A stretch of 64,000 nucleotides of DNA, taken from an uncultured Gammaproteobacteria bacterium. Its GTDB lineage: Bacteria; Patescibacteriota; Microgenomatia; Levybacterales; UBA12049. The notes beneath the pieces are model-generated. The model did not search any database. It had not been told where the DNA came from and saw only the letters and a list, made by a program, of their open reading frames with translations. The translations under genes and the position numbers were made by a program. Positions 5,653 through 25,126 of this stretch are shown one piece after another. Each line of letters opens with the position of its first letter. Within the stretch, counting starts at the first letter, position 1. Where the stretch lies: the NCBI GenBank assembly GCA_964635045.1, contig CAZWMJ010000003.1:12011-76010 (forward strand). Direction: 5' to 3'.

Positions 5653-7668
5653 ATGGTAGAATCAGTAAAAATGATTAAGAGAGTTATTTTTATTCTTGCT
5701 GATACTCTGCGGGCAAAACATGTTGGTTTATATGGGAAAAATCCTTCCCCAACCCCAAATATAGATAGACTAGGAAAAAAGGGCGTGGTCTTTACAAATA
5801 CATATTGCTCTAGCACCTGCACAGATCCTTCCATTACGTCGATTATGGCAGGCAAATATCCTCTTTCTGTACAACTCGTAAATCATGGAAGATACGTGAC
5901 GCTTGATGAAGAGGAACAGGTGGCAAAAGTCCCCCTCCTTCCAGAGATTCTCAAATCGCATAGATATAAAACTGCCGCTATTGACTGGTTGGGAAGATGG
6001 CATAAAAGGGGATACGATTATTATAGTGGAAGAATCAACAAAGATTTTGATGAAGAGTATCCCATTTTTGATCGGCTTCCATTCCCTCTTTTTATAAGAG
6101 CTTTTGATAAACTACTAGTCAAAAACTTTAACCGAGTATTCTTAACTCGATGGTATTACTCCTTCTTAGCAAATCCAAAAATTCCTTATGATACTGCAAA
6201 TATTATTATCGATAAAGCAGTAGAAATATTGGAAAAAAGCCGGCAAAAACCATTTTTTCTCTATCTCCATTTCTGGGATATTCATACTCCTCACATAAGA
6301 CCTAGGGGACTCAGATCGTATCTTTTTGATAGTGTCGAACAAACGTATACTGCGGAAATTAAGTTTTTAGATGGGGAAATTGGGAGATTAGTAGCTTATC
6401 TGGATAAAACAAACCAAATAGACGATACGCTTATCGTTTTAACAGCTGACCATGGAGAAAATTTTTTTGAGCATGATATGCCCCTACATCACGAAAACCT
6501 TTATGAGGATGTCGTGCGGGTGCCTCTGTTTTTTTACTACCATCCCCTTGGAAGGAAAAGAGTAGATACATTAGTTCAGCAAGTGGACATTATGCCAACA
6601 GTCCTTGCCATACTCGGTTTTCCTATTCCTGCTAATATTGATGGGAAGAGTCTCTTACCTCTCATACGAAGTACAAAGAAAAAGATACGAGATTTCGCCT
6701 ATTTCGAAGACATTACGTATAGGAGGCTTCGTTTTATGCGTAACACAAGGCGACGAGGTATCCGCATAGGCCAACATAAGTATATAGAAACATTAAGTGG
6801 CGCTAACGGAGAACTTTATCAAATTACTCCACGAGAAGATTTGTTTCATGTTAAGGAAGAGTTGTACAATCTTCAAACAGATTCTTTGGAGAGGAAGAAT
6901 ATTATAAGGGAAAAAACATATATTGCAAAAAAACTTAGAGAAAAATTGCATGGGAAAATTTTGGAATTGAACAGAAAACGCTTGCGAAATAATCCTGACC
7001 TTAATAAAAAGGTTGAAAGGAGCCTTCAAGTAATTAGGAAAGCGGTAAAACGGTTTAAGGGAAAAGAAATCGCTCTTGCCTGGACCGGCGGGAAGGATTC
7101 TACCGCTCTTCTTCATCTTGCGCGCTTAGCTTTTGACGGCAAAATTCCTTTTAAGGTAATTTTTAATGACTCCACCATGGAGTTTGAAGAAATTTATCGG
7201 TTTATTGAAAAAATATCCAGGCTTTGGGGCATCAAAGTAATTACCATTAAACATTCGGACAAAGAACTGGCGGAATTTCACAATACCCGCGACCGTGAGA
7301 AGAAAAAAGAACTGTCAAGAATTATGAAAATTACCGCCATTAACAGCGCCTTAAAAAAATATAAACTAAAAGGATTTATGGCGGGTATCCGCTGGGACGA
7401 ACATGAAAGCAGGTCCAAAGAAAAATATTTCTCTCCAAGATCGGATCATATACGAATTCATCCTCTTCTTCATTTTACCGAAAGTGATATTTGGGAATAC
7501 ATCAAGTTTTTCGGCGTTCCCTTTGTTGATCTTTATTCGAAAGGCTATCGTTCTTTGGGAGAAAAACCCTTTACTCACAAGGCCGCGCCCGGACAAGGGG
7601 AGAGATCGGGCAGAGAACGCGATAAAGAACAGCTGATGCAGAGACTGCGGAAGATGGGCTACTGGTAG
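5653..7668 (+). CDS. Fusion protein: N-terminal sulfatase/alkaline-phosphatase-superfamily domain plus C-terminal PAPS-reductase/PP-loop (CysH/CysD-like) domain
   Basis: N-domain: ILADTLRAKHVGLYG...TPNIDRLGKKGVVFTNTYC..CTDPSITSIMAGKYP and DHGENFFEHD...VRVPLFFY, which are sulfatase-family blocks. C-domain (about 7030-7668): KGKEIALAWTGGKDSTALLHLARLAF, a PP-loop SGGKDS-type motif of the PAPS-reductase family. Confidence 0.7.
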   Translation: MVESVKMIKRVIFILADTLRAKHVGLYGKNPSPTPNIDRLGKKGVVFTNTYCSSTCTDPSITSIMAGKYPLSVQLVNHGRYVTLDEEEQVAKVPLLPEILKSHRYKTAAIDWLGRWHKRGYDYYSGRINKDFDEEYPIFDRLPFPLFIRAFDKLLVKNFNRVFLTRWYYSFLANPKIPYDTANIIIDKAVEILEKSRQKPFFLYLHFWDIHTPHIRPRGLRSYLFDSVEQTYTAEIKFLDGEIGRLVAYLDKTNQIDDTLIVLTADHGENFFEHDMPLHHENLYEDVVRVPLFFYYHPLGRKRVDTLVQQVDIMPTVLAILGFPIPANIDGKSLLPLIRSTKKKIRDFAYFEDITYRRLRFMRNTRRRGIRIGQHKYIETLSGANGELYQITPREDLFHVKEELYNLQTDSLERKNIIREKTYIAKKLREKLHGKILELNRKRLRNNPDLNKKVERSLQVIRKAVKRFKGKEIALAWTGGKDSTALLHLARLAFDGKIPFKVIFNDSTMEFEEIYRFIEKISRLWGIKVITIKHSDKELAEFHNTRDREKKKELSRIMKITAINSALKKYKLKGFMAGIRWDEHESRSKEKYFSPRSDHIRIHPLLHFTESDIWEYIKFFGVPFVDLYSKGYRSLGEKPFTHKAAPGQGERSGRERDKEQLMQRLRKMGYW

Positions 7669-9956: not shown

Positions 9957-10382
9957 TTAACGTGGTTTTAATATCTTGACTGAAAAGACCGTGTCATTCC
10001 AGGCTCTTTTTTTAAGAAGGTAGGGGATGGTGATTTCCACTTTTTGATTAGTCATCAAGGCGGAGTTTGTGGCGACTTTTGTTTTGGAGGAGATTTTTGT
10101 TTTGTCTGTCACGATAAATTTGGGAATATTCGCTCCTTTAATATCGGTGATTAATTCTGTCCCTTTGGGATTTTTCCGTATTTCTTTGATGGTTGCGGAA
10201 AAGGTGTAGAAGGCGCTTACGGACTTGATTGACTTGTTTGACGGGAGAATCGGCAGAAGTTCGCTGATATACTGGACGTTTGATTTTGGTTTGTTCGCGC
10301 CTACTTTCAAAAAAGACCAGCCGGCCACAGATAAAACAATTAGTACAATCAAAACAATAAGCAAATTGTAGGAGTTTTTCAT
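9957..10382 (-). CDS. Hypothetical small membrane-anchored protein
   Basis: 141 aa with an N-terminal TM helix. Compact spacing with neighbours. Confidence 0.35.
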   Translation of the reverse strand: MKNSYNLLIVLIVLIVLSVAGWSFLKVGANKPKSNVQYISELLPILPSNKSIKSVSAFYTFSATIKEIRKNPKGTELITDIKGANIPKFIVTDKTKISSKTKVATNSALMTNQKVEITIPYLLKKRAWNDTVFSVKILKPR

Positions 10383-10431
10383 AAATATCTAAAATTATTA
10401 TGGCACAAAAATCGCCATTGTCAAAGGGTAT

Positions 10432-11022
10432 TTATTGGGCGGAGGGCGAAGCCGCGTTTGACGCGGGCGGGGCGGTAGCCGCGTTTGACGCTGCGGGTAA
10501 TATTAATATCACCCGTTCTACGTCGGTTTTGGCCCCGCCTGACGCTGAAAAAGAAACTACCACCAGCACATTATTTCCTATTTTAATATTATCGACGGTG
10601 GTGGGATTAAGTTTGGCGTTTGGCTCATCCAGTCTTATAAAATAATAGACTTTTTTCCCTCCGTCATTTCTTAGCGTTACGGTCTTGCCGTTTTTCTCCA
10701 GAGTCCAGCTTTGATTCTCCACCATGCTTTTAAGCGCGCCGCTGTAGGTCTGGGTGATTTTGGTTTGGGTAATAAGGCCTTTGGAGTTTTGGATGGCGTT
10801 TTGGGCTTTTTGAAAGCCGTTGGCCGGTTGTTTCAATTGAGTAAGAGAAGCTTTTGTTGTTTCCGCCCCCTTTTTACCAACCGATTGCTGAAGACCTAAA
10901 AAATATCCTCCAATAGCGATAATGAAAGCCATCACCCCCAGCGATAAATAGACCATAAAAACGTGTTTGGCGGAATTTTCAGAATTTGCCCCGCTCAGCG
11001 GGGTTGAGACTGGTTGATCCAT
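10432..11022 (-). CDS. Hypothetical membrane protein with Ala/Pro/Ser-rich C-terminus
   Basis: The internal Met at 11022 is the chosen start, because the longer ORF to 11157 would overlap the next gene. Single TM helix (VFMVYLSLGVMAFIIAIGGYFLG). The 3' end overlaps tandem GCGTTTGACGC hairpins. Confidence 0.3.
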   Translation of the reverse strand: MDQPVSTPLSGANSENSAKHVFMVYLSLGVMAFIIAIGGYFLGLQQSVGKKGAETTKASLTQLKQPANGFQKAQNAIQNSKGLITQTKITQTYSGALKSMVENQSWTLEKNGKTVTLRNDGGKKVYYFIRLDEPNAKLNPTTVDNIKIGNNVLVVVSFSASGGAKTDVERVILILPAASNAATAPPASNAASPSAQ

Positions 11023-11116: not shown

Positions 11117-11767
11117 TCAAGTATAAGATTTGAGAAGAGCGAAGGCTTTATTAACATATTCTTCTTTGACTACCAGCGTCAGTTCATTGTGAGTGGAGAT
11201 GATTTCAATAACATTGATGCCCTCCCAGGCCAGCAGTTTTAAGATGGCGTAGTAAACTCCCGGCCTTTCCACAGTGTTTCTTGGCAGAAGAAGGGTGATG
11301 GAGGATAAACCCTCTATCTTTGCCACCAGTTTTTCGTCCGCAAAAATGCCCTCCAATTTTTTGACAATGCCGCGGCTTATAATAAAGGTGGTTTCTCTTA
11401 CTCCCTGAGCCAAATTGCAAAGTATGTCGCGGTCTGTTTTTATAGCGGAAAATAATTCATGTTGTTTTTCGGTCATGGTTGCGGAGTTTATGAAGGTAAA
11501 TCCCACTAGATTGAGGCGAACAGTCAGATCTCCCAGATTTATTTTTTGATTCATCTTTGGGTTTGGATCGTTTTTGAGTTTATCGCTGACTCTTTTTAAG
11601 GCCATCACGATCGCCCCTCTTTTGACATCTTTGAGCAGTTTTTTTTGAATCTGTTCTCTCAGGTCTCTGGCCAGAGCGGAGAAGCTTATGATATCGCGAG
11701 TTAAAGCATACTCCAAAAAGGGAGTAGTTTTGACTATTTCTTCCACAACCTGTGCTGTGCTAATCAT
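11117..11767 (-). CDS. Uncharacterised ~215-aa protein, paralog of the 22043..22687 product
   Basis: 216 aa. Clear similarity to the 22043..22687 product in the N-terminal 45 residues (VVEEIVKTTPFLEYALTRDIISFSALARDLREQIQKK versus VSEIIKTDELGLEAFRAGILNLSAYAEKIQKRVEAI) and in overall length. Divergent from the lysW cluster. Confidence 0.45.
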   Translation of the reverse strand: MISTAQVVEEIVKTTPFLEYALTRDIISFSALARDLREQIQKKLLKDVKRGAIVMALKRVSDKLKNDPNPKMNQKINLGDLTVRLNLVGFTFINSATMTEKQHELFSAIKTDRDILCNLAQGVRETTFIISRGIVKKLEGIFADEKLVAKIEGLSSITLLLPRNTVERPGVYYAILKLLAWEGINVIEIISTHNELTLVVKEEYVNKAFALLKSYT

Positions 11768-11907: not shown

Positions 11908-11980
11908 TCGCTTTTTTACTCGCGTCACCCGCCCTGCTTACCTAACTTCTGTGACAAGTGTAACACTTATTGTCAATTTT

Positions 11981-12030
11981 GTCAAAATTAGGCAAAAAGT
12001 TGACAAATTGTATGATTAGATATATAGTAA
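11981..12030 (+). promoter_or_regulatory. Candidate promoter/operator for lysW
   Basis: TTGACA(11999-12004)-N17-TATAGT sigma70-like pair. Motif gtcaaaattaggcaaaaagttgacaaatt is shared with 27808-27835 upstream of the wecB-like gene. Confidence 0.35.
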
Positions 12031-12038
12031 CCTGCATT

Positions 12039-12239
12039 ATGATAAATGGCAATGGTAATAAATCTTTAACTGGCGCCTGCGCTGTTTGCGACGCGCAGAT
12101 TTCCCACGCCGATTCGCTGGAACAATCGGAAATTATTCTTTGTCCCGAGTGCAAAAGCAGATTAGTGGTGGAAAGCATTAAAGGAAGTCAGTTTGTCTTA
12201 TCACAGGCTCCAGAGGTTGAGGAAGATTGGGGAGAATAG
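12039..12239 (+). CDS. lysW: Amino-group carrier protein LysW (alpha-aminoadipate/glutamate carrier)
   Basis: Four-Cys zinc ribbon CAVC...CPEC and the diagnostic C-terminal EDWGE tail. The ORF track gives 11970..12239. The internal Met at 12039 gives a 66-aa product of typical LysW size. Confidence 0.7.
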   Translation: MINGNGNKSLTGACAVCDAQISHADSLEQSEIILCPECKSRLVVESIKGSQFVLSQAPEVEEDWGE

Positions 12240-12246
12240 GATTTTC

Positions 12247-13089
12247 ATGAAACTTGCTATTCTTCACTCAACAATCAGGGCTGAGGAAAAACTCCTCATG
12301 GAAGCCTCCAAAGAACGCAAAATTGACATTGTTCTCATCGATATTCGAGATCAGATATTTAATCCTGCGACCTACAAAGTTGATTTTGACATCGCTTTGG
12401 AACGCAGTGTTTCCTCGGTTAAGGGCATGTACGCCACCCAATTTTTGGAGTCTTTGGGAGTGCCGGTGGTTAATACTTCCCGCATTGCCGCTATCTGCCA
12501 GGACAAATTTCTGACTTCTCTCTCTCTGAAAAGAGCCGGCGTTCCCACCCCCAAGTTTGCTCTGGTTTTTTCCGAACGGCAGGCGATTGAGGCGGTGGAA
12601 GAGCTGGGAGGATATCCGGTGGTAGTCAAGCCCAATTTAGGTTCGTGGGGCAGGCTGGTGGCCAAAGTGAACGATCAAGACGCGCTGGAGGCGATTATCG
12701 AACAAAAAACCACTCTGGGCGGCCCCCATCATCAGGCCATTTATGTGCAGGAGTATATTGAAAAACCGGGCCGCGATATCCGTATTCATGTGATTGGAGG
12801 GAAAGTAATAGCCGCCATTTATCGGCAAAGCGAGCATTGGATTACCAATACGGCCCGGGGAGCAGAAGCCATTGCCTGTAAAATAGACAATGAGCTCTCC
12901 GTTATTGCCGAAAAAGCGGCCGGCTCGATTGGAGTGGGTGTTTTGGGACTGGATATTCTGGAGACCAAGACCGGATATGTGGCTAATGAAGTTAATCATA
13001 CCATGGAGTTTAAAAACGTTCAGCGCGTGACCAAAATAGACATTGCCGGCACCATTCTTAATTACTGTATGTCTGTTGTCAAAAAATGA
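12247..13089 (+). CDS. lysX: RimK/LysX-type ATP-grasp ligase (LysW gamma-glutamyl ligase)
   Basis: MKLAILHS... start 8 nt after the lysW stop. ATP-grasp blocks: VVVKPNLGSWGRLV, IYVQEYIEKPGRDIRIHVIGGKV, YVANEVN. About 280 aa. Confidence 0.8.
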   Translation: MKLAILHSTIRAEEKLLMEASKERKIDIVLIDIRDQIFNPATYKVDFDIALERSVSSVKGMYATQFLESLGVPVVNTSRIAAICQDKFLTSLSLKRAGVPTPKFALVFSERQAIEAVEELGGYPVVVKPNLGSWGRLVAKVNDQDALEAIIEQKTTLGGPHHQAIYVQEYIEKPGRDIRIHVIGGKVIAAIYRQSEHWITNTARGAEAIACKIDNELSVIAEKAAGSIGVGVLGLDILETKTGYVANEVNHTMEFKNVQRVTKIDIAGTILNYCMSVVKK

Positions 13090-14135
13090 AAAAAATTACC
13101 GTTTCTATTATTGGGGCGTCTGGTTATGCCGGAGGAGAACTGCTTCGGATTTTGCTGTTTCACCCAAGTGTTGTGGTGGCGCAGGCGACGTCGAGAAAGT
13201 TGGCCGGACAGCCGGTCGGAACAGCCCATCCCAATTTAAGAGGAGTTACCGATTTGGTTTTTTGCGATCCCCAAGAGCTAAAAGCTTGCGATGTGCTTTT
13301 TGTGTCATTGCCCAATACCGTTTCCATGGGGCACATGAAAGATTATCAAAAAATTGCCCCCAAAATTATTGATTTGGGAGCGGATTTTCGGCTTAACACC
13401 GAGGAGTCATTTACCAATTTGTACAAAAAAGCGCATCCGCTGCCCGCTCTTTTGCCAAAATTTGTCTATGGACTGAGCGAACTGCATCGAGCGGAAATTA
13501 AAAAAGCCGACTATGTGGCCTGCGGAGGCTGTGAGGCCACCGTTTCCATTTTAACTTTATATCCGCTCATCAAGCATCATTTAATTGAAGAAACATCAAT
13601 TATCATTGACGCCAAAATGAGCAGCTCGCAGGGAGGCAATGAGGTTAATTCTTCTTCGCATCATCCGGAAAGAGCGGGGGTGGTGCGTTCCTACAAGCCG
13701 GTCGATCACAGACACTGGGCGGAAATTGAACAGGAACTTGCGCCTTTTGCCCCCCATATTAAAGTGGCGGTTTCTGCCACCACCATTGAGATGGTGCGAG
13801 GGTTGCTAGTGACTATTCACACTAAGCCGGTGAAAGGAGTTTTGGAAAAAGACATTTGGAGAGCGTACAGAGCAGAGTATGGTCAGGAGCCGTTTATCCG
13901 CATTATCAAAGAGGCCAACGGGAATTATCGCTATCCGGAGCCCAAAATTCTTACAGGAACAAATTATTGCGACATTGGTTTTTCCCTAAGCGAGCGGGAG
14001 GGCAGGCTGGTGGCTATTGGAGCTATTGACAATCTGGGCAAGGGGACGGCCGGGCAGGCGGTGCAGGCGATGAATTTGATGTGTGGCTTCACCGAAACAG
14101 CGGGCCTCACTTTTCCAGGAATTCACCCTATATAA
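13086..14135 (+). CDS. argC: N-acetyl-gamma-glutamyl-phosphate reductase family (ArgC/LysY)
   Basis: VSIIGASGYAGGELLRIL NAD-binding start, catalytic Cys region ACGGCEAT. 349 aa. 4-nt overlap with lysX. Confidence 0.85.
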   Translation: MKKITVSIIGASGYAGGELLRILLFHPSVVVAQATSRKLAGQPVGTAHPNLRGVTDLVFCDPQELKACDVLFVSLPNTVSMGHMKDYQKIAPKIIDLGADFRLNTEESFTNLYKKAHPLPALLPKFVYGLSELHRAEIKKADYVACGGCEATVSILTLYPLIKHHLIEETSIIIDAKMSSSQGGNEVNSSSHHPERAGVVRSYKPVDHRHWAEIEQELAPFAPHIKVAVSATTIEMVRGLLVTIHTKPVKGVLEKDIWRAYRAEYGQEPFIRIIKEANGNYRYPEPKILTGTNYCDIGFSLSEREGRLVAIGAIDNLGKGTAGQAVQAMNLMCGFTETAGLTFPGIHPI

Positions 14136-14138
14136 CTT

Positions 14139-14933
14139 ATGATTATCTTAAAAGTTGGCGGGGGTAAAAACATTAACTGGGATTATATTGCTTCGGATAT
14201 CAAAAATCTTGGCGAAAAAGTGGTTATTGTCCACGGCGCCAACGTGTGGATGAGAGAAATTTCGGAAAAATTGGGTCTGCCGGAGAAAATAATCACCTCC
14301 CCTTCCGGTTTTACCAGCCGCTACACAGATAGTAAAGTGATGGAAGGTTTGACGATGATTTACAGCGGACTGATAAATAAAAAAATTGTAGCCACTTTAC
14401 AAAAACACGGTGTTAATGCGGTAGGCCTGACAGGCGCGGACGGGAAATTATGGCTGGGAAAAAGAAAAGAGATTATTTACGAAAAAGCAGGTGACAAAGT
14501 AAAAATAATTCGCGATTCGCTGACCGGCAATGTGGTTTCGGTAAATGTCTCACTTTTAACGTTACTTATTAAAGAAGGTTATACGCCGGTTATAACTATT
14601 CCCGCTATTACCGACAAGGGCGAACTTATCAATGTAGATAACGATCGGGCGGTGGCGGTAATGGTCAAAGCGCTTTCCGTCGCAAAAGTGGTGATGCTGT
14701 TTGAGGCTTCGGGCCTTTTGGCAGATAATGAAGACGAATCTTCCAAAATATCATCAATTGAAAAGCAAAAGCTGGATAGTTTTTTGGAAAAAGCTCATGG
14801 CAGAATACGTAAAAAATTGTTGGGTGCCAAAGAGGCCATACTTCATGGCGCCAAACATGTTTATTTTGGCGATGGCAGAATTGCGCATCCTGTCAAAGAA
14901 GCGCTTTTGGGAAAGGGAACGGTGATTCAATGA
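14139..14933 (+). CDS. argB: Amino-acid kinase family, acetylglutamate kinase-like (ArgB/LysZ)
   Basis: MIILKVGGG...VIVHGAN start; carbamate/amino-acid kinase fold motifs. 264 aa. Confidence 0.8.
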   Translation: MIILKVGGGKNINWDYIASDIKNLGEKVVIVHGANVWMREISEKLGLPEKIITSPSGFTSRYTDSKVMEGLTMIYSGLINKKIVATLQKHGVNAVGLTGADGKLWLGKRKEIIYEKAGDKVKIIRDSLTGNVVSVNVSLLTLLIKEGYTPVITIPAITDKGELINVDNDRAVAVMVKALSVAKVVMLFEASGLLADNEDESSKISSIEKQKLDSFLEKAHGRIRKKLLGAKEAILHGAKHVYFGDGRIAHPVKEALLGKGTVIQ

Positions 14934-16075
14934 ACGATTATTTGGTGGCTTCTTATCCGAATCGGGGAGTGACATTTGTGTCAGGGGCGGGACCATATTT
15001 TTTGGACCAAAACAAAGTGAAATATCTTGATTTGGGAAGCAATTACGGCGTTAATATTTTCGGTTTCACTCACCCAAGAATAACAAAAGCTTTGGAAATT
15101 CAGCTGGGTAAAATTACCAACATTCACGGTTCGTTTGGCAGTGATGTCAGAAGTCGCGCGGCAGAAGAGCTGGTTAAGCGCTGTGGCGGAGGGCTTGCCC
15201 GGGTTTTTTTCTCCAATTCAGGTTCGGAAGCGATAGAGGCGGCGATTAAATTTGCCCATCTGTTTAGCGGTAAATCTCATTTTGTCGCCATGGAAAATGG
15301 CTATCATGGGAAGACATTGGGAGCGTTATCGGCTACAGGTAGCGGAAAATATCGCGTTCCCTTCCTGCCGCTGTTGTGGAATTTCAGCCATGTTGTTTTT
15401 GGCGATCAAAATTCCTTAAAGAAAAGTATTCGTCCGGACACGGCCGCTATTATTCTGGAACCGATTCAGGGAGAGGGAGGAATTGTTCTTCCTCCAAAAG
15501 GCTATCTTAAATTTGCGCAAAAACTGTGTCAAGAAAAAGGCATACTTTTGATTACCGATGAAATTCAAACAGGGTTGGGCAGGACCGGCACTTTTTTGGC
15601 AGGCGAGCAGGACAATTTAACGCCCGATATTCTGTGTTTGGGAAAAGGACTGGCAGGAGGAATTCCGATTGGAGCAACGCTCACGACAGAAGAAATTGCC
15701 CAAAAAATACCGCTTCATGTTCACACATCGACATTCAGCGGCAATCCACTCTCCTGCGCCGGCGTTTTGGCGGTTTTGAAAGAATTTGAAGACGGAAAAG
15801 TGCTTGCTCATGTCAGAGAAACAGGAGAATATTTTTTATCAGAGCTTAAAAAAATAAAACATCCAAAGATTGTAGCGGTTCGGGGAATTGGTTTGATGTT
15901 GGCAATAGAATTATCGGAGAATGCCACTCCCGTTCTTAAAGCTTTACAGAATGAAAAAATCATCGCCATTCCGGCCGGAGCAAATATCATTCGTTTCCTG
16001 CCCTCATACCTGATTACCAAAAAAGAAATAGACAGGGCAGTTTCAGTTTTACGAACTATTTTTAATAACTTTTGA
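14930..16075 (+). CDS. argD: Class-III PLP aminotransferase (acetylornithine aminotransferase ArgD/LysJ)
   Basis: GSEAIEAAIKFA, LITDEIQTGLGRTG, FSGNPLSCAGVLAVL are class-III aminotransferase blocks. 381 aa. 4-nt overlap with the upstream gene. Confidence 0.85.
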   Translation: MNDYLVASYPNRGVTFVSGAGPYFLDQNKVKYLDLGSNYGVNIFGFTHPRITKALEIQLGKITNIHGSFGSDVRSRAAEELVKRCGGGLARVFFSNSGSEAIEAAIKFAHLFSGKSHFVAMENGYHGKTLGALSATGSGKYRVPFLPLLWNFSHVVFGDQNSLKKSIRPDTAAIILEPIQGEGGIVLPPKGYLKFAQKLCQEKGILLITDEIQTGLGRTGTFLAGEQDNLTPDILCLGKGLAGGIPIGATLTTEEIAQKIPLHVHTSTFSGNPLSCAGVLAVLKEFEDGKVLAHVRETGEYFLSELKKIKHPKIVAVRGIGLMLAIELSENATPVLKALQNEKIIAIPAGANIIRFLPSYLITKKEIDRAVSVLRTIFNNF

Positions 16076-16108
16076 GCTTTAAGCTTTGCGCTTTGAGCTT
16101 TATTTACC

Positions 16109-16789
16109 GTGTGCAGATTTTTACTTGTCAGATCAGAAAAAAAGATAAAGCCGCAAAAATTACTTAGCCAGTTTGCCAGCATGTGTCAAAAAAGCCGGGC
16201 GCCGGACGGGGATTGGCAGGGAGACGGATGGGGAATGGCATACAAAACTCAAAACTCAAAACTCAAAACTCAAAACTGGCAAATACATAAATCACTAAAG
16301 CCGATATGGGAGGAACGAGATAAATTTGGGCAGTTTGAAGAAACCAATGTATTTGTAGCTCATGCCAGAAGCGCCGGCTTCCCGCAACACAAAGGAAATA
16401 TTGCGTTTAATCAGCCTTTTATCGATAATGACCTGTGTTTTGTTTTTAACGGTCTGATTCGTGGTGTCACCGTTCAAAGAAAACTCAAAGGAGAAATCGG
16501 GGCGCAGAAGATTTTTAGTCTTATTCTTGAGGAGTTAGGTAGCAGTAAACCCGATGAGGTTCTTAAAACAGTTGACAAGTTGATTGTTGCCAACTCCAAA
16601 AAAATTACGGGGATGAATATCGGCTTGGCCAGAAATAACAAATTTTACCTTTTGTGCGAGTATGACGGTAACGCTTCTTATTTTGCTGTCAGATATTTTC
16701 AAAACAATGATTTAACGATTGTTTGTTCGGAACCAATCGGCAAATACGAGTGGAAAACAATGCAAAAAGGCGAGATTCTGGTATTGTAA
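16109..16789 (+). CDS. YafJ-type class-II glutamine amidotransferase-like Ntn hydrolase
   Basis: N-terminal Met-Cys nucleophile (MCRFLLV). DGDWQGDGWGMAY and HARSAGFP...NQPF blocks are typical of YafJ/class-II GATase domains. Contains an in-frame (AAAACTC)n tract at 16238-16275. Confidence 0.55.
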   Translation: MCRFLLVRSEKKIKPQKLLSQFASMCQKSRAPDGDWQGDGWGMAYKTQNSKLKTQNWQIHKSLKPIWEERDKFGQFEETNVFVAHARSAGFPQHKGNIAFNQPFIDNDLCFVFNGLIRGVTVQRKLKGEIGAQKIFSLILEELGSSKPDEVLKTVDKLIVANSKKITGMNIGLARNNKFYLLCEYDGNASYFAVRYFQNNDLTIVCSEPIGKYEWKTMQKGEILVL

Positions 16790-16797
16790 CTCATCGT

Positions 16798-18597
16798 ATG
16801 AGAATAAAAGAAGAATTACAACGGGTAATTAAGCAGATTGTAAGCGATCTGGGGGTGGAGGGGATAGAGCCGGTGATGGAGACGCCGGCTGTGCCGTCAC
16901 ATGGAGACTATTCGACAAATATTGCTATGGCAATATTCTCTAATTCAAAATTCAAAATTCAAAATTCAAAACTACAAGTCAAAACTCAAAAATATAAAAG
17001 TCCACTAGAGCTTGCCGAAGCCATTGCCGAATTGCTTAATACTAAATACCAAATACCAAATACTGACCTCATTGAGGCGGTCGCGCCCGGTTTTATCAAT
17101 TTCCATCTCTCCAAAGACTATTTGGTCGGTCGATTAAATGATCCGCTGTCTGAAAAAGAAAAGTTTGGGCAAACCGCTAGATTAAAAGATAAAAGTATCA
17201 TTGTAGAATTTACCGATCCAAATCCATTCAAAGAGTTCCATATTGGACATCTTTACAGCAATGTTGTGGGTGAGTCTTTATGCCGGCTTTTGGAAGCAAA
17301 TGGAGCGCGGGTTATGCGGGCAAACTATCAGGGAGATGTGGGGATGCACGTTGCAAAAGCCCTTTATGGGCTTTTGCAAAACTTAGAACTTAGAACTCCC
17401 CACTTCGCTAAAGCTTCGCGGGGCAAGCAGAACTCAGAACTGGATAAGAAACCACTCGATGAACGGGCAAAACTTTTGGGCGAGGCGTATGCGTTGGGAG
17501 CAAAAGCTTACGAGGGAGATGAGACGGCCAAAAAAGAGATAAACGAGCTCAACAAAAAAATTTACCAGAAAGAGCCGGAGATAATGGATCTTTATGAAAA
17601 GGGGAGGCAGTGGAGTTTGGATTATTTTGAAACTATTTACAAGCGTTTGGGAACTAAGTTTGATTTCTATTATTTTGAGAGTAAGGTGGGAGAGATTGGC
17701 TTAAAACTGGTCAAACAGTATGTCAGTGAAGGAATTTTTGAGGAAAGCGAGGGGGCGGTGGTTTTTCCGGGCAAACAATTTGGTCTTCATACCAGAGTTT
17801 TTATTAACTCCCAGGGATTTCCGACCTATGAGGCAAAAGAGCTTGGGCTTGCTCCCACCAAATATGAGGATTTTCCCTACGATCAATCTATTATCGTCAC
17901 CGGTAATGAGATTATTGAATACTTCAAGGTGCTGATGGCGGCTCTTGCCAAGATTCGGCCCGACTTGGCTTTGAAAACCAAACATATTCCTCATGGCATG
18001 GTGCGGCTTAAGCAGGGGAAGATGAGTAGCAGAACCGGCGATGTGGTGACAGGGCAGTGGCTGTTGGATGAGACTAAAGGAAAAATAAAAGAGCGGTTTT
18101 CGGAAATTAAGGATGAGGTGGCAGAGCAGGTGGCGGTGGGAGCGGTTAAGTACGCTCTGTTAAAAAGCGGTTTGGGCAGAGACATCGTTTTTGATTTTGA
18201 AGAATCAATCAATTTAGAAGGCAACAGCGGGCCGTATTTGCAGTATACGTACGCTCGTACACGTAGTGTACTCGCAAAATCTAGAATTCAGAATTCAGAA
18301 TTCAGAATTAGCCTCGCAAGGTCTCACCTTGCGAGGCTAGAAGTTGAGGAATTAGTTCTTCTTCGTCTGCTTCATAGATTTCCGGAAGTAGTGGGGGAGG
18401 CGGCGGAGAAATTTACTCCCAATTTTTTGTGCAATTATCTTTTTAATTTAGCCCAAGCCTTTAATCTCTTTTACCAAAAACACCAAATTATCGGCAGTCA
18501 ACAAGAGGCTTTTCGTTTATCCCTCACTCGTGCTATCGGCCAAACTCTCAAAGAAGGATTAGATCTTTTGGGGATTGTCGCCCCCCAGAGAATGTGA
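16798..18597 (+). CDS. argS: Arginyl-tRNA synthetase
   Basis: Class-I HIGH motif FHIGHLYSNVVGESL; KMSSRTGD (KMSK-type) motif; DALR anticodon-binding C-terminus. Start moved to the ATG at 16798 just after the upstream stop. Carries several in-frame heptamer tracts and a 13-bp palindrome. Confidence 0.9.
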   Translation: MRIKEELQRVIKQIVSDLGVEGIEPVMETPAVPSHGDYSTNIAMAIFSNSKFKIQNSKLQVKTQKYKSPLELAEAIAELLNTKYQIPNTDLIEAVAPGFINFHLSKDYLVGRLNDPLSEKEKFGQTARLKDKSIIVEFTDPNPFKEFHIGHLYSNVVGESLCRLLEANGARVMRANYQGDVGMHVAKALYGLLQNLELRTPHFAKASRGKQNSELDKKPLDERAKLLGEAYALGAKAYEGDETAKKEINELNKKIYQKEPEIMDLYEKGRQWSLDYFETIYKRLGTKFDFYYFESKVGEIGLKLVKQYVSEGIFEESEGAVVFPGKQFGLHTRVFINSQGFPTYEAKELGLAPTKYEDFPYDQSIIVTGNEIIEYFKVLMAALAKIRPDLALKTKHIPHGMVRLKQGKMSSRTGDVVTGQWLLDETKGKIKERFSEIKDEVAEQVAVGAVKYALLKSGLGRDIVFDFEESINLEGNSGPYLQYTYARTRSVLAKSRIQNSEFRISLARSHLARLEVEELVLLRLLHRFPEVVGEAAEKFTPNFLCNYLFNLAQAFNLFYQKHQIIGSQQEAFRLSLTRAIGQTLKEGLDLLGIVAPQRM

Positions 18598-18620: not shown

Positions 18621-19895
18621 ATGAATTTTCATAGGACTGTCTTGCCAAATGGTCTTCGTTTAATTCTTATTCCGATGGAGTCGGTGAAAAGCGTCACCGC
18701 GCTGGTGATGGTGGGGGCGGGCAGCCGCTATGAAACCAGAGACAACAACGGAGTCTCTCATTTTCTGGAACACATGGCCTTCAAAGGCACCAAAAAAAGG
18801 CCCTCCGCAATTTTAATTTCCAGTCTGATTGACGGCATCGGCGGAGAATTTAACGCTTTTACTTCCAAAGAAACCACCGGTTACTATATCAAATCATCAT
18901 CAAACCATATCAATTTACTGCTGGATGTGCTTTCCGACATGCTGAGAAATTCGCTTTTTGACGCCAAAGAGATTGACAAAGAGCGGGGAGTAATCCTCGA
19001 AGAAATAAATCTTTACGAGGATACGCCGGTCCGCAAAATCGGCGATGTCTATGAACAGCTTCTGTACGGGGACACGCCGATGGGGTGGGATGTGGCAGGC
19101 CAAAAAGAAATTATCAAAAAAATAGACCGTCAAAATTTCATTTCTTACATGGAAAGTTTGTACAGCCCGCACAATATGACAGTGGTGGTGGCCGGAGGGT
19201 TTAAATCGTCGGCAGTAACAGAACTGGTCCAAAAATATTTTGGGCAGATGGCGCGTTTCAAAACTAAGCCGGCTGAAAAGGTTATTGAAAAGCAAATAAA
19301 ACCCAGCCTTTTCATCAAACAAAAAAATACCGAACAGGCGCATCTGGCTTTGGGCGTTCGCACTTTTCCGGTACACGACAGCCGCCGCTACATACTGTCT
19401 GTTTTGGCCACCATTTTGGGTGGGGGAATGAGCAGTAGGCTCTTTCATGAAGTGCGGGAAAAACGCGGCCTTGCCTATTATGTCCGCTCCAGCAATGAAC
19501 ATTATGATGATTGCGGAAGTTTGGTTTCCACCTCCGGCGTTGATCCAAAGCGCATCGAAGAAGCGATAACCGTGATACTTGATCAGTATCACAGAATTTC
19601 CAATTTCCAATTTCCAATTTCCAATGAGGAGTTAGCAAAGGCCAAAGAATACATGAAAGGGCATCTTATTTTGGAGTTGGAAGACAGCCGGGCGGTGGCC
19701 GGTTTTTACGGCTCGCAGGAGATATTGGAGAGGAAAATAGAGACGCCGGATGAGGCGATTGCCAAAATTAAAGCGGTGACTGTGGAAGAGCTGGAAGCAG
19801 TGGCCAAAGAGATTTTTAGGCCGGAAAGATTAAACCTGGCCGTGATCGGCCAATTTGACTCTGGACAAAGATTTGAAAAACTGCTACAAATGTAA
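18621..19895 (+). CDS. M16-family (insulinase-like) zinc peptidase
   Basis: Inverted zinc motif HFLEHMAFKGT (HxxEH). 424 aa. Contains the (TTCCAAT)n tract at 19596-19626. Confidence 0.8.
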   Translation: MNFHRTVLPNGLRLILIPMESVKSVTALVMVGAGSRYETRDNNGVSHFLEHMAFKGTKKRPSAILISSLIDGIGGEFNAFTSKETTGYYIKSSSNHINLLLDVLSDMLRNSLFDAKEIDKERGVILEEINLYEDTPVRKIGDVYEQLLYGDTPMGWDVAGQKEIIKKIDRQNFISYMESLYSPHNMTVVVAGGFKSSAVTELVQKYFGQMARFKTKPAEKVIEKQIKPSLFIKQKNTEQAHLALGVRTFPVHDSRRYILSVLATILGGGMSSRLFHEVREKRGLAYYVRSSNEHYDDCGSLVSTSGVDPKRIEEAITVILDQYHRISNFQFPISNEELAKAKEYMKGHLILELEDSRAVAGFYGSQEILERKIETPDEAIAKIKAVTVEELEAVAKEIFRPERLNLAVIGQFDSGQRFEKLLQM

Positions 19896-20445: not shown

Positions 20446-21930
20446 TCACGCAGCGGGAAATGGTAAACCGAGCCTTCGACGAGCAATATATTGGGCTGCT
20501 AAATCTAAGGGATCAACAGGAATTTTTCCTCTGTAGTCTTTTAACCCTTTCCATATTTGGGAAATTTCTGTAAGTGCAAAAACAACATAGGTAGATTCAA
20601 GTTTTTCTTCTTTTAGTAATTGACCTTTTTTGTCGTGTTCTCTATGGACGTGGAAAAGGATATCACGAAGATAGGTAAGCGCTCTTTCTGGGGGAGCCCC
20701 TGTTTTAACAGCATGTGCAAGCGCTACTACTTTTTCCAAAGCCCAGGGATTCAACATCTCAACTGCGATGCCCGCTTTACGAAGTTCTTCTAGGTATGGG
20801 CCATGTTCATCTTGTGCGACTTCAGGGATACCAATTAAGGCTACTTGGTTTACTCCCATAGTTTTAAGATATCTTGCAGTTACTTCCGGTAAAGTCACTA
20901 CTTCCGTCTTCGACCCCTCCAACAAGTCTCGAATAGCGGGTGTAAATACAGGCGTTGTATTACACGCAAGAGTTATTACATCAGGATCATGTTTCATCAT
21001 TTCTAAAATCTCTCTTGAAAGGCCTGCCCAAACTAAAGGACTGCGAACACGATTTTCGATAGAATATCCCATTTCGGGGATAGAGATAGTTTCTATGCGA
21101 GGCATATAGATATCTCGTGCTGGAACACCCATTTCTCTAAGTAACTGTCGAGTATGAAAGTTAATAAGTGTTTTGAATAGATCGCCGGATTCAGGTGGAT
21201 TGCCAGTCACAATGTTTATTTTTCCACGTAAGTGCGATCTTTCTAAAGTGTTCTCCGTTTCTTTTGCAATATCTGATATTTGGGTATCGACTATACTAGA
21301 AAATAGTTGCTGAGGATTAAATTCAACCCCCCACGTATATCCTCCTGCATTAGTTGTAACTGTAAAAGGCTCAACAGTTAGGGGTGATAAGACATCTGGG
21401 TCAACAATATGAATAAAAGGAGTTTTTATCATATGTCTTTCACCGTTTCTTCCACGGACAAGTTTAGCATTTGACAAAGGATGTACTAGTCCGCGACCTA
21501 CGCCTAATTGATCTAGGGTTTCGTTACTAGCAAACATTATAGGGTTATTTAGACCTAAAACTTTGTTTAGTTTTTCAAAATCAACTTCTTCATCGCCCCG
21601 AACATGAGTCATGATTAGAATAGGTTTTCCAGCCCGATCAAATGATTGCCATAAACCTGTTTTTAATTCTTGGGCAAGGAGCACACCTCTCTCTCCATAC
21701 TGAAATCTATTATGTGCTGCCTCAGCGCAGCCTTCTGAATGAGGATTTCGGCTTAATAAGAACCAGATGTTAGCCCCAGTCAAAACATTAATTGTATTTC
21801 TGACCTCGTAGGGGACATATCTTTCTCCCTTTGAGCGATCGAGTAAGGTCTTAGCCGCATCCAATTGCCACTCACGGTAAGACCTTGGATCACCAAGACC
21901 TAATGAAAATTCAACCCCACCTCGTTGCAT
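20446..21930 (-). CDS. Asp/Glu/hydantoin-racemase-family domain (C-terminal) fused to an unidentified ~230-aa N-terminal domain
   Basis: C-terminal half carries IVTGNPPESG..., LACNTTPVF (ACNTAH-like) and IGIPEVAQDE blocks. N-terminal half is unassigned. 494 aa is about twice normal racemase length. Confidence 0.35.
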   Translation of the reverse strand: MQRGGVEFSLGLGDPRSYREWQLDAAKTLLDRSKGERYVPYEVRNTINVLTGANIWFLLSRNPHSEGCAEAAHNRFQYGERGVLLAQELKTGLWQSFDRAGKPILIMTHVRGDEEVDFEKLNKVLGLNNPIMFASNETLDQLGVGRGLVHPLSNAKLVRGRNGERHMIKTPFIHIVDPDVLSPLTVEPFTVTTNAGGYTWGVEFNPQQLFSSIVDTQISDIAKETENTLERSHLRGKINIVTGNPPESGDLFKTLINFHTRQLLREMGVPARDIYMPRIETISIPEMGYSIENRVRSPLVWAGLSREILEMMKHDPDVITLACNTTPVFTPAIRDLLEGSKTEVVTLPEVTARYLKTMGVNQVALIGIPEVAQDEHGPYLEELRKAGIAVEMLNPWALEKVVALAHAVKTGAPPERALTYLRDILFHVHREHDKKGQLLKEEKLESTYVVFALTEISQIWKGLKDYRGKIPVDPLDLAAQYIARRRLGLPFPAA

Positions 21931-25091: not shown

Positions 25092-25126
25092 CGGGGAGAT
25101 TCCCAGTTCGAGTCTGGGTAGGGATA
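25053..25126 (+). tRNA. tRNA-Arg (anticodon CCT)
   Basis: Acceptor GTCCCTA/TAGGGAT (G1-U72); D-arm GCTC-AATTGGATA-GAGC; anticodon stem CCCCG/CGGGG with loop GTCCTAA; T-arm CCCAG-TTCGAGT-CTGGG. Confidence 0.75.

What the first reader, a model, noticed from the sequence alone, without database searches (positions are those of the whole stretch)
11970..16789. LysW amino-group-carrier pathway in a reduced-type genome, with a YafJ-type Ntn amidohydrolase where LysK would be
The strip lysW-lysX-argC(lysY)-argB(lysZ)-argD(lysJ) is tightly packed, with 4-nt overlaps between genes. LysW carries the CAVC...CPEC zinc ribbon and the EDWGE tail. LysX is a RimK-type ATP-grasp ligase. This is the Thermus/Sulfolobus-type carrier-protein route, in which the substrate is tethered by its alpha-amino group to the gamma-carboxyl of the LysW C-terminal Glu. 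No M20 LysK/ArgE-type deacylase is present. The next gene instead encodes a class-II glutamine-amidotransferase-like Ntn hydrolase with Cys2 nucleophile (MCR...). That chemistry is gamma-glutamyl amide hydrolysis, which is formally the same bond type as the LysW-gamma-Glu-N(alpha) isopeptide. This suggests a non-orthologous replacement of LysK for product release. With no homocitrate/aminoadipate genes in view, the likely product is ornithine from glutamate. Amino-acid biosynthesis is unexpected in a genome of this style. argS follows directly.
Basis: partly seen in the sequence, partly recalled or inferred. Interest (0 to 1): 0.85.

Follow-up and report, generated by a model that had tools for sequence, protein, structure and literature searches.

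The report
Cysteine hydrolase replaces LysK in LysW pathway
A candidate-phyla-radiation bacterium carries the carrier-protein (LysW) route to lysine/ornithine, but a small cysteine N-terminal-nucleophile amidohydrolase sits where the usual metal-dependent release enzyme LysK would be; this swap recurs in many bacterial phyla and has not been described.

Summary
Window 12039-16789 encodes lysW, lysX, lysY(argC), lysZ(argB), lysJ(argD) and a 226-aa class-II-glutamine-amidotransferase-like Ntn hydrolase (Cys2), followed by argS. The 64 kb holds no M20 LysK.

- The hydrolase gene lies directly after lysJ in 68 of 75 related genome loci from several phyla.
- An independent sample of LysW clusters (seeded on LysX) gave 17 complete clusters with the Ntn gene only, 10 with a true LysK only, and none with both or neither.
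- Two arginine operons contain it as the only unassigned gene, with the deacylase step as the only missing one.
- The model's best structural match is EgtC, a gamma-glutamyl amide hydrolase. The Asp that binds the free alpha-amino group of glutamine is an invariant Gly here.

New finding: about a quarter of LysW genes in Ntn-type clusters end in EDWGQ instead of EDWGE. These need deamidation before loading, a Pup/Dop-like logic.

LysX, LysZ and a conserved upstream ACT-domain gene group with aminoadipate (lysine) clusters, although no homocitrate genes lie in the window.

Nothing is shown biochemically, and genome-wide absence of LysK could not be tested.

The parts
11117..11767 (-). ACT-domain protein (216 aa), divergently transcribed from lysW; candidate amino-acid-sensing regulator of the operon
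   Evidence: Weak Pfam DUF7523 plus ACT_7/ACT_9 hits. A homolog lies about 60-270 nt upstream of lysW, on the opposite strand, in about 50 related loci. It is absent from arginine-type and LysK-type clusters. The role is inferred.
12039..12239 (+). lysW: amino-group carrier protein with a zinc ribbon (CAVC...CPEC) and C-terminal EDWGE
   Evidence: PF21344 32.9 bits, above the gathering score of 27. Full-length alignment to solved LysW proteins. The ORF could start further upstream (TTG 11970), but homologs are 55-60 aa.
12247..13089 (+). lysX: RimK-type ATP-grasp ligase that loads the amino acid onto the gamma-carboxyl of the LysW C-terminal Glu
   Evidence: TIGR02144 331.7 bits, cut-off 275.6; LysX_preATP_grasp plus RimK domains. 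Groups with aminoadipate-cluster LysX.
13086..14135 (+). lysY/argC: semialdehyde-forming reductase; 4-nt overlap with lysX
   Evidence: TIGR01850 363.5 bits, cut-off 233.6.
14139..14933 (+). lysZ/argB: carrier-bound amino-acid kinase
   Evidence: NF010659 [LysW]-aminoadipate kinase 279.3 bits, cut-off 223.
14930..16075 (+). lysJ/argD: class-III aminotransferase; 4-nt overlap with lysZ
   Evidence: PF00202 332.5 bits. ArgD and LysJ models match but stay below their specific cut-offs.
16109..16789 (+). Cys-Ntn (class-II glutamine-amidotransferase-fold) amidohydrolase, 226 aa. Proposed LysW-gamma-glutamyl amide hydrolase, a LysK analog. In relatives whose LysW ends in Gln, it is also the proposed LysW deamidase.
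   Evidence: GTG start then Cys2. AF2 model pLDDT 94.7. Best structural match EgtC, TM 0.72. Directly after lysJ in 68/75 loci. Mutually exclusive with true LysK. Residues 46-56 are a lineage-specific loop encoded by a heptanucleotide repeat.
16798..18597 (+). argS (arginyl-tRNA synthetase), 8 nt downstream and probably co-transcribed; not a conserved part of the system
   Evidence: TIGR00456 370.6 bits. Among the related loci argS follows the Ntn gene only in L026 and L047, which are arginine-type clusters.

Best explanation
The strip is a LysW (amino-group carrier protein) biosynthetic operon.

Established for the homologous enzymes, inferred here:
- LysX uses ATP to attach the alpha-amino group of the substrate to the gamma-carboxyl of the C-terminal Glu of LysW. 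By phylogeny the substrate is most likely alpha-aminoadipate; glutamate is possible.
- LysZ, LysY and LysJ then phosphorylate, reduce and transaminate the tethered substrate.

Proposed for the last gene, inferred only:
- It encodes a stand-alone class-II-amidotransferase-fold Ntn hydrolase.
- After removal of the initiator Met, Cys1 attacks the gamma-carbonyl of the LysW terminal residue.
- The amine (lysine or ornithine) leaves, and a LysW-gamma-glutamyl thioester forms. The Asn114-Gly115 oxyanion hole stabilises it.
- Water then regenerates LysW-Glu.
- Arg87 holds the free alpha-carboxylate of the terminal Glu.
- The Asp that binds a free alpha-amino group in glutamine-using relatives is an invariant Gly131. 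This fits a glutamyl residue whose alpha-amine is in a peptide bond.

The enzyme therefore does the job of the M20 metallohydrolase LysK by different chemistry. In relatives whose lysW encodes a C-terminal Gln, the same active site would first deamidate LysW-Gln to LysW-Glu. The window's own LysW ends in Glu.
For: 1. Conserved position. lysJ lies directly upstream on the same strand (median gap about 14 nt) in 67 of 75 genome loci with enough upstream sequence. The count is 68 once the split lysJ of L028 is included. The loci span CPR classes, Aminicenantes, Acidobacteriota, Coprothermobacterota and others. In other lineages the gene sits between lysY and lysZ, or after lysZ, but still inside the cluster.

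2. Complementarity. In a sample seeded on LysX rather than on the hydrolase, 17 complete clusters have the Ntn gene only and 10 have LysK only. None has both or neither. Partial loci add 13 Ntn and 2 LysK. The M20 genes are true LysK (NF003367 383-424 bits, cut-off 363; L154 at 340.6 bits, below the cut-off but its best hit).

3. Missing-step logic. L047 reads argH-argG-argF-lysW-X-Y-Z-J-Ntn-argS and L046 reads argH-argF-lysW-X-Y-Z-J-Ntn-argG. These contain every arginine step except the deacylase, plus exactly one unassigned gene.

4. Fold. The pLDDT 94.7 model best matches EgtC, a gamma-glutamyl amide hydrolase (E 4e-12, TM 0.72). Next come YafJ-like proteins and the GlmS/PurF glutaminase domains.

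5. Active site. In 108 family members Cys2 and Arg3 are present in 107; His85, Arg87, Phe113-Asn114-Gly115 and Gly131 are invariant; Lys134 is present in 107. hhalign places Gly131 on the Asp of YafJ ETDSE, which corresponds to GlmS Asp123.

6. LysW tails. 24 LysW genes end in EDWGQ. All are in Ntn-type clusters or clades (24/107). None of 17 in LysK-type clusters does (one-sided Fisher p 0.019). There are at least 16 independent E/Q switches. A Gln tail cannot be loaded by an ATP-grasp ligase without a deamidase.

7. Co-evolution. Pairwise distances of the hydrolase track those of LysX/Y/Z/J (r 0.67-0.82; the Lys enzymes among themselves give 0.79-0.83).
Against: - There is no biochemical or genetic test.
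- Genome-wide absence of LysK could not be checked for this or any related genome; only 64 kb, or 10 kb either side of each locus, was visible. In Thermus, lysK is known to lie outside the main cluster (own knowledge), so absence from a cluster is not absence from a genome.
- One locus (L035, Roizmanbacteria) has an M20 gene next to lysW as well as the Ntn gene. That M20 is not LysK-like (72 bits to NF003367; best hit is the generic ArgE/DapE family).
- Seven loci carry the hydrolase away from any lys gene: Entotheonella/Tectimicrobiota and one Chloroflexi.
- The Asp-to-Gly equivalence rests on a profile alignment (probability 87%) and secondary-structure position, not on superposed coordinates.
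- The Fisher test ignores phylogenetic non-independence.
Confidence: 0.7

Rival explanations
1. The Ntn protein is only a maturation or repair enzyme for LysW. It would deamidate a C-terminal Gln, or clear mis-loaded or dead-end LysW adducts. Product release would be done by a LysK or another peptidase encoded elsewhere in the genome.
For: Gln-ending LysW genes occur only with the Ntn gene. lysK can lie outside the cluster in known organisms (own knowledge). L035 keeps an M20 gene beside the cluster.
Against: 83 of 107 LysW in Ntn-type clusters, including the window's, already end in Glu and need no deamidase, yet the gene is retained. No cluster combines the Ntn gene with a true LysK, and every complete cluster has one or the other. 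The arginine operons L046 and L047 would lack their deacylase.
Confidence: 0.12
2. The Ntn protein is a free-glutamine glutaminase, or acts on another small gamma-glutamyl compound. It would be linked to the operon only indirectly, for example by supplying glutamate as amino donor for LysJ.
For: The fold and catalytic residues are those of glutamine amidotransferase domains. Databases call it 'glutamine amidotransferase'. Orphan copies exist outside lys clusters.
Against: The Asp that binds the alpha-amino group of free glutamine is an invariant Gly. A glutamate-supply role does not explain the strict either/or pattern with LysK, nor the link with Gln-ending LysW.
Confidence: 0.06
3. Rival on the product, not on the mechanism. 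In this genome the operon makes ornithine from glutamate (ArgW-type use), rather than lysine from alpha-aminoadipate.
For: No homocitrate synthase, homoaconitase or homoisocitrate dehydrogenase lies in the 64 kb. The closest relatives L010 and L011 also lack them within 10 kb. argS follows directly, as in the arginine-type loci L026 and L047. Some LysW enzymes are bifunctional (PMC12998189).
Against: The window's LysX is 50-64% identical to LysX of clusters with aminoadipate-forming genes and 38-42% identical to arginine-operon LysX, whose clade (100/100 bootstrap) excludes it. LysZ passes the [LysW]-aminoadipate kinase model but not the bifunctional models. The upstream ACT gene is seen mostly with aminoadipate-type clusters, many of which have no HCS/AAA gene in view, and never with arginine-type ones. 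No argF/G/H lies in the window.
Confidence: 0.25

Closest known systems
LysK, [LysW]-lysine/ornithine hydrolase (M20 family, ArgE/DapE homolog; Thermus, Sulfolobus, Thermococcus)
   Same: Same proposed reaction: hydrolysis of the isopeptide between the gamma-carboxyl of the LysW C-terminal Glu and the alpha-amino group of lysine or ornithine. Same operon slot directly after lysJ in LysK-type clusters.
   Different: Unrelated fold and chemistry. LysK is a metal-dependent M20 hydrolase of about 350 aa. This protein is a 226-aa Cys N-terminal-nucleophile hydrolase that would act through a thioester intermediate. LysK-type clusters in the sample never have a Gln-ending LysW.
EgtC, ergothioneine-biosynthesis Ntn amidohydrolase (PDB 4zfj/4zfk/4zfl)
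   Same: Best structural match (E 4e-12, TM 0.72). Stand-alone class-II amidotransferase fold with Cys as N-terminal nucleophile. Cleaves a gamma-glutamyl amide to release an amine.
   Different: 18% identity. Scores 42.7 bits against the EgtC model cut-off of 218.65. No egt genes nearby. EgtC acts on a free gamma-glutamyl group with a free alpha-amine, and this family has Gly where the amine-binding Asp should be.
YafJ-like stand-alone class-II glutamine amidotransferases (Pfam GATase_4; PDB 3mdn, 1te5)
   Same: Same domain architecture and size. MC... N-terminus, DGWG, H-x-R and H/F-N-G motifs align.
   Different: Barely reaches the Pfam threshold (24.5 vs 23). 22% identity to E. coli YafJ. 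Family-specific invariant or near-invariant Arg3, Gly131 and Lys134. YafJ has no known link to a carrier protein.
Dop, the deamidase/depupylase of the Pup system (works-like analogy only)
   Same: Logic only. A small carrier or tag protein is encoded with a C-terminal Gln in some lineages and Glu in others. One enzyme is proposed both to deamidate the Gln and to cleave the gamma-glutamyl isopeptide. An ATP-dependent ligase (PafA there, LysX here) needs the Glu form (own knowledge of Pup/Dop; for LysW).
   Different: Dop is a glutamine-synthetase-fold, ATP-binding enzyme, unrelated to Ntn hydrolases. Pup tags lysine side chains of proteins for degradation, whereas LysW protects the alpha-amino group of a metabolite.

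Membership tests
LysW / amino-group carrier protein pathway | Small zinc-ribbon carrier protein with a conserved C-terminal EDWGE ending in Glu | tested here: met
   CAVC...CPEC plus EVEEDWGE. PF21344 32.9 bits, above 27. Aligns to PDB LysW through the tail. Below the NCBIfam cut-offs.
LysW / amino-group carrier protein pathway | LysX-type RimK ATP-grasp ligase adjacent to lysW | tested here: met
   TIGR02144 331.7 bits, cut-off 275.6; starts 7 nt after lysW.
LysW / amino-group carrier protein pathway | LysZ kinase, LysY reductase and LysJ aminotransferase in the same operon | tested here: met
   NF010659 279.3 bits (cut-off 223) and TIGR01850 363.5 bits (cut-off 233.6). LysJ is a class-III aminotransferase but stays below the LysJ-specific cut-offs.
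LysW / amino-group carrier protein pathway | M20 LysK hydrolase for product release | tested here: not met
   No PF01546 or LysK-like sequence in the 64 kb. The rest of the genome was not available.
alpha-aminoadipate lysine pathway (Thermus type) | Homocitrate synthase, homoaconitase (large and small subunits) and homoisocitrate dehydrogenase | tested here: not met
   Absent from the window. Present inside or beside the orthologous cluster in relatives such as L005, L012, L025 and L030. The rest of the genome could not be tested.
Class-II (Ntn) glutamine amidotransferase fold | Cys directly after the initiator Met as N-terminal nucleophile | tested here: met
   GTG-Cys2; Cys2 in 107/108 family members.
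Class-II (Ntn) glutamine amidotransferase fold | Four-layer alpha-beta-beta-alpha Ntn fold | tested here: met
   AF2 pLDDT 94.7. Foldseek probability 1.00 to EgtC, 3mdn, GlmS, PurF and AsnB glutaminase domains.
Class-II (Ntn) glutamine amidotransferase fold | Arg binding the substrate alpha-carboxylate, and an Asn-Gly oxyanion hole (GlmS Arg73, Asn98-Gly99) | tested here: met
   HAR87 and FN114G115 are invariant and align to YafJ HIR / HNG and 3mdn HVR / HNG.
Class-II (Ntn) glutamine amidotransferase fold | Asp binding the free alpha-amino group of glutamine (GlmS Asp123, T-D-[ST]-E motif) | tested here: not met
   Replaced by invariant Gly131 in G-x-I-G-[AS]-[QE]-K. Based on alignment, not on coordinates.
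EgtC (ergothioneine biosynthesis) | Match to TIGR03442 at its cut-off, and egtA/B/D/E gene context | tested here: not met
   42.7 bits against 218.65. The neighbours are lys genes, not egt genes.
LysK ([LysW]-lysine hydrolase, NF003367) | M20 metallopeptidase fold and sequence | tested here: not met
   The 16109-16789 product matches no M20 model. It is an analog, not a member.

The most novel reading that the evidence does not exclude
A previously unrecognised family of Cys-Ntn amidohydrolases is the carrier-recycling enzyme of LysW pathways in many bacterial phyla. The family comprises about 770 clusters at 50% identity and thousands of sequences. It would both release the finished amino acid (lysine or ornithine) and, where lysW encodes ...EDWGQ, activate a 'pro-LysW' by deamidating its C-terminal Gln. 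That would be a metabolic counterpart of the Pup/Dop deamidase-depupylase logic. If so, genomes now scored as having incomplete lysine or arginine synthesis (CPR Microgenomates, Aminicenantes, Acidobacteriota, Desulfobacterales) are in fact complete for these steps.
Probability: 0.55. Interest if true: 0.9.

Novelty: new variant of a known kind. Interest (0 to 1): 0.8.

Why it matters
- It would fill a recurrent hole in the LysW-type lysine and arginine pathways of uncultured bacteria. That changes auxotrophy predictions for CPR organisms usually assumed to make no amino acids.
- It would be a clean case of non-orthologous displacement: a metallohydrolase replaced by a thioester-forming Ntn hydrolase acting on a protein-tethered metabolite.
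- It shows that the 'invariant' C-terminal Glu of LysW is often encoded as Gln. That predicts a maturation step not known for amino-group carrier proteins.
- The family has no curated model in Pfam or NCBIfam and is annotated only as 'hypothetical' or 'glutamine amidotransferase'. No paper in the searchable library links LysW to such an enzyme or mentions EDWGQ.

Tried and rejected
- Exact-sequence look-ups of the window's Ntn protein found no contig. The lysJ product was found only on contigs of 4.4 kb or less. The source genome could therefore not be inspected beyond the window.
- Rfam scans found no riboswitch or leader upstream of lysW that could have named the end product.
- hhalign of the family against the E. 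coli GlmS glutaminase domain alone gave only a 19-column match around the Asn-Gly motif, and nothing in global mode. YafJ was used as the bridge instead.
- The profile search against PDB sequences found only 3mdn, at E 0.0026.
- The AlphaFold-database fold library was unavailable.
- A 477-aa 'fusion' of the hydrolase with LysZ (P0374) is a frameshift or gene-call artefact of a lysY-Ntn-lysZ cluster, not a Rosetta-stone fusion.
- L149 first looked like a cluster with neither enzyme. True LysK queries showed a LysK 0.5 kb beyond lysJ.
- The M20 gene of L035 first looked like a counter-example. It is not LysK-like.
- Entotheonella loci were checked for a hidden lys context. The neighbours are luciferase-like oxidoreductases and a transposase.
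- GC content gives no sign of recent transfer.

Full report
**1. Observation**

The region holds six tightly packed genes on the + strand.

- HMM scans identify a LysW-like zinc-ribbon protein at 12039-12239. Pfam PF21344 scores 32.9 bits against a gathering score of 27, but the protein is below the NCBIfam LysW cut-offs.
- LysX (12247-13089) passes TIGR02144 with 331.7 bits against 275.6.
- ArgC/LysY (13086-14135) passes TIGR01850 with 363.5 bits.
- LysZ (14139-14933) passes NF010659, [LysW]-aminoadipate kinase, with 279.3 bits against 223.
- ArgD/LysJ (14930-16075) is a class-III aminotransferase.
- The 226-aa protein at 16109-16789 barely reaches Pfam GATase_4 (24.5 vs 23) and weakly resembles EgtC (42.7 bits vs 218.65).

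The LysW candidate aligns over its whole length, including ...EEDWGE, with the solved LysW proteins of Thermococcus, Thermus and Sulfolobus. The last gene starts with GTG followed by Cys (MCRFLL). argS most likely starts at 16798, 8 nt after its stop.

Pfam scans of every ORF of 250 aa or more found no M20 peptidase, no homocitrate synthase, aconitase or isocitrate-dehydrogenase-type gene, and no argF/G/H in the 64 kb. tblastn with reference proteins agreed. The nearest relatives are named Microgenomates/Gottesmanbacteria.

**2. Is the last gene part of the pathway?**

A database search found 732 homologs of the Ntn protein, annotated 'hypothetical' or 'predicted glutamine amidotransferase'. 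A profile scan of 185,579 species genomes returned 80 loci.

Of 75 loci with at least 1.3 kb upstream, 67 have lysJ directly upstream on the same strand, with a median gap of about 14 nt. L028 has a split lysJ, which brings the count to 68. The taxa include Gottesman-, Roizman-, Levy-, Davies-, Shapiro- and Pacebacteria, Dojkabacteria, Parcubacteria, Aminicenantes, Acidobacteriota, Coprothermobacterota and Thermoanaerobaculaceae.

About 25 clusters also contain homocitrate synthase, and several contain homoaconitase and homoisocitrate dehydrogenase. One example is lysW-X-Y-hcs-hacL-hacS-hicdh-lysZ-J-Ntn in L005. The exceptions without lys genes nearby are one Chloroflexi and six Entotheonella/Tectimicrobiota loci.

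**3. Complementarity with LysK**

To avoid sampling only hydrolase-containing loci, I scanned metagenome contigs with a LysX alignment.

- Among clusters that are complete and have at least 1.1 kb beyond lysJ, 17 carry the Ntn gene only and 10 carry an M20 gene only. None carries both or neither. L149 was reassigned to the M20 group after the LysK search.
- Partial loci add 13 Ntn and 2 M20.
- The M20 genes sit directly after lysJ and are true LysK: NF003367 [LysW]-lysine hydrolase scores 383-424 bits against a cut-off of 363. L154 scores 340.6 bits, below the cut-off but still its best hit.
- In one lineage the Ntn gene lies between lysY and lysZ. This is a divergent branch (about 32-35% identical to the window's Ntn protein) named Desulfobacteraceae/Desulfobacterales by the sources, with 3,268 homologs. 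In two loci the gene lies after lysZ. It always starts MCR[FLI]L.
- Across the Ntn-type loci of both scans, the only one with any M20 hit is L035. That protein is a generic ArgE/DapE-family member (133.7 bits vs 217.6, and only 72 bits to the LysK model).

**4. Missing-step logic**

Five Ntn-type loci are flanked by arginine genes.

- L047 reads argH-argG-argF-lysW-lysX-lysY-lysZ-lysJ-Ntn-argS.
- L046 reads argH-argF-lysW-...-lysJ-Ntn-argG.
- L026, L089 and L022 have argF just before lysW.

L046 and L047 contain every step from glutamate to arginine except removal of the protecting group, and exactly one gene without an assigned step.

**5. The protein**

AlphaFold2 with a 37-sequence alignment gives pLDDT 94.7. 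Foldseek against the PDB ranks EgtC first (E 4e-12, TM 0.72, 18% identity). EgtC is the ergothioneine Ntn hydrolase that cleaves a gamma-glutamyl amide. Next come the YafJ-like structures 3mdn and 1te5 and the glutaminase domains of GlmS, PurF and AsnB. At sequence level only 3mdn is detectable (E 0.0026).

In 108 family members taken from the loci, the following residues are invariant or nearly so: Cys2, Arg3, Gly40, Gly42, Trp67, His85, Arg87, Phe113-Asn114-Gly115, Gly131, Lys134 and Ser207.

Profile alignment to E. coli YafJ (probability 87%, E 4e-7) matches HAR87 to HIR and FNG to HNG. It matches G-E-I-G131-A-Q-K to G-E-T-D-S-E-K. The YafJ ETDSE motif corresponds to GlmS E121-T122-D123. 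From my own knowledge of the GlmS glutaminase domain, Arg73 binds the substrate alpha-carboxylate, Asn98-Gly99 form the oxyanion hole, and Asp123 binds the free alpha-amino group.

This family therefore keeps the nucleophile, the carboxylate clamp and the oxyanion hole, but has an invariant Gly where the amine-binding Asp should be. That is what one expects if the glutamyl residue is the C-terminal residue of a protein: free alpha-carboxylate, alpha-amine in a peptide bond. This is inference from alignment, because I had no coordinates to superpose.

The family is basic (median pI 8.7) and LysW is very acidic (median pI 4.1), like the other LysW-binding enzymes.

**6. An unexpected correlate**

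Of the LysW genes in the fetched loci, 24 end in ...EDWGQ followed by a stop (CAA x19, CAG x5). The remaining 103 end in ...EDWGE.

Of the 24, 23 are in clusters shown to be Ntn-type. The other (L096) is a truncated locus whose LysX is 83% identical to an Ntn-type one. No LysW in a LysK-type cluster or clade ends in Gln. The counts are 24/107 against 0/17 (one-sided Fisher p 0.019, not corrected for phylogeny). Parsimony on the LysX tree needs at least 16 E/Q switches, spread over CPR, Acidobacteria-like, arginine-type and Desulfobacterales-type clusters. The closest relative of the window, L010, is one of them. The window's own LysW ends in Glu.

A terminal Gln has no gamma-carboxylate for the ATP-grasp ligase, so a deamidase is obligatory. 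A glutamine-amidohydrolase-fold enzyme encoded in the same operon is the obvious candidate. Since 83 of 107 Ntn-type clusters encode Glu and still keep the enzyme, deamidation cannot be its only role. The logic parallels Pup-Gln/Dop, where one enzyme both deamidates and depupylates (own knowledge).

'EDWGQ' occurs in no paper of the library. The 2025 paper on this pathway still treats the ArgE homolog LysK as the hydrolase (PMC12998189).

**7. Lysine or ornithine here?**

A neighbour-joining tree of 140 LysX sequences puts the five arginine-linked sequences in their own clade (100/100 bootstrap). In the full tree this clade sits next to the second LysX copies of LysK-type clusters. The window falls in the large clade that contains the aminoadipate-gene clusters, whose monophyly has 68/100 support.

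- Identity of the window's LysX is 50-64% to HCS/AAA-linked clusters, 38-42% to arginine-linked ones and 42-51% to LysK-type ones.
- LysZ passes the [LysW]-aminoadipate kinase model but not the bifunctional models.
- An ACT-domain gene divergent from lysW (window 11117-11767) is conserved in about 50 type-A loci, many of them aminoadipate-linked. It is absent from the arginine-type loci.
- Against lysine: no aminoadipate-forming genes lie in the 64 kb or beside the two closest relatives, and argS follows the operon.

I rate lysine as more likely than ornithine, at roughly 60:25, with the remainder for bifunctional use.

**8. Further support and limits**

Pairwise distances of the hydrolase correlate with those of LysX/Y/Z/J (r 0.67-0.82). 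The Lys enzymes among themselves give 0.79-0.83, and all exceed 500 permutations. This is consistent with long co-inheritance. An exhaustive profile search finds 771 clusters at 50% identity with E of 1e-3 or better, 293 of them at 1e-10 or better. Nearly all are single-domain proteins of 210-230 aa.

Limits:
- There is no experiment.
- Genome-wide absence of LysK is untested.
- One locus has an extra non-LysK M20 gene.
- Orphan copies exist in Entotheonella and Chloroflexi.
- The active-site equivalences come from alignment.

**9. Verdict**

The finding is real. Its central interpretation, an Ntn amidohydrolase as a non-orthologous replacement of LysK, is the best-supported explanation (confidence about 0.7). 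It extends well beyond this window.

It is a new variant of a known system. I found no curated family, no informative database name and no literature. The Gln-ending LysW adds a second testable prediction.

Noticed in passing
L010 5954-6142, L026 5853-6026, L025, L035, L047, L173, L174 and 17 other loci (lysW 3' ends); window lysW 12039-12239 for comparison: About a quarter of LysW genes in Ntn-type clusters encode a C-terminal Gln (...EDWGQ-stop) instead of the canonical Glu. None in LysK-type clusters does. At least 16 independent E/Q switches are needed. This implies an obligatory deamidation step.
   Followed up: yes
window 11117-11767 (-); paralog 22043-22687 (+): A 216-aa protein with a weak DUF7523 N-terminal hit and a C-terminal ACT domain. 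A homolog is conserved divergently about 60-270 nt upstream of lysW in about 50 related loci. It is absent from arginine-type and LysK-type clusters. It may be an amino-acid-sensing regulator.
   Followed up: partly
window 16071-16101, 16243-16277, 16942-16991, 17038-17063, 18283-18309, 19595-19625, 36257-36291, 36483-36516, 51852-51879, 52632-52664, 56054-56085, 56518-56552, 56666-56699, 61996-62030, 88-126, 578-598: About 16 heptanucleotide tandem arrays (3-7 copies, different units) lie in coding and intergenic DNA. The array at 16243-16277 encodes the KTQNSKLKTQN loop insertion of the Ntn protein, which 94% of family members lack. Others lie inside argS. They are reminiscent of cyanobacterial STRR repeats.
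   Followed up: partly
L046 3333-12010; L047 2518-12671; L026 5011-13029; L089; L022: Bacterial arginine operons built on the LysW carrier route (argH/argG/argF flanking lysW-X-Y-Z-J-Ntn, sometimes followed by argS). Their LysX forms a separate, ArgX-like clade.
   Followed up: partly
L124, L125, L128, L134, L135, L144, L147, L150, L152, L157, L158, L166, L169, L170, L173, L174: A second cluster architecture, lysW-X-Y-Ntn-Z-J, with a divergent branch of the hydrolase (about 32-35% identity). Sources attribute it to Desulfobacteraceae/Desulfobacterales. It has 3,268 database homologs.
   Followed up: partly
L035 3463-5611: In one Roizmanbacteria locus a GNAT-like gene and a generic ArgE/DapE-family M20 gene (not LysK-like) sit just upstream of a Gln-ending lysW, in a cluster that also has the Ntn gene.
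   Followed up: partly
L074, L077, L078, L080, L081, L082 (Entotheonella/Tectimicrobiota) and L008/L009 (Chloroflexi), position about 10001-10650: Orphan copies of the hydrolase with the family's invariant residues but no lys genes within 10 kb. In L074 the neighbours are luciferase-like oxidoreductases and a DDE transposase.
   Followed up: partly
window 5653-7668 (+): A 671-aa ORF combining an N-terminal sulfatase domain with a C-terminal PAPS-reductase-like domain. This is an unusual fusion, located in a glycosyltransferase/O-antigen-ligase neighbourhood.
   Followed up: no
window 20446-21930 (-): A 494-aa ORF with weak aminoacyl-tRNA-editing (YbaK-like) and Asp/Glu-racemase domain hits in one protein.
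   Followed up: no
window 25053-25127 (+): ARAGORN calls a tRNA-Arg(CCT) here, but Rfam's tRNA model does not report it at gathering score: five tRNAs against six.
   Followed up: no
window 26570-27595 and 61282-62472 (+), 62480-63274 (+): There are two MreB paralogs. The second matches the MreB model in two stretches, which suggests an insertion, and is followed by MreC.
   Followed up: no
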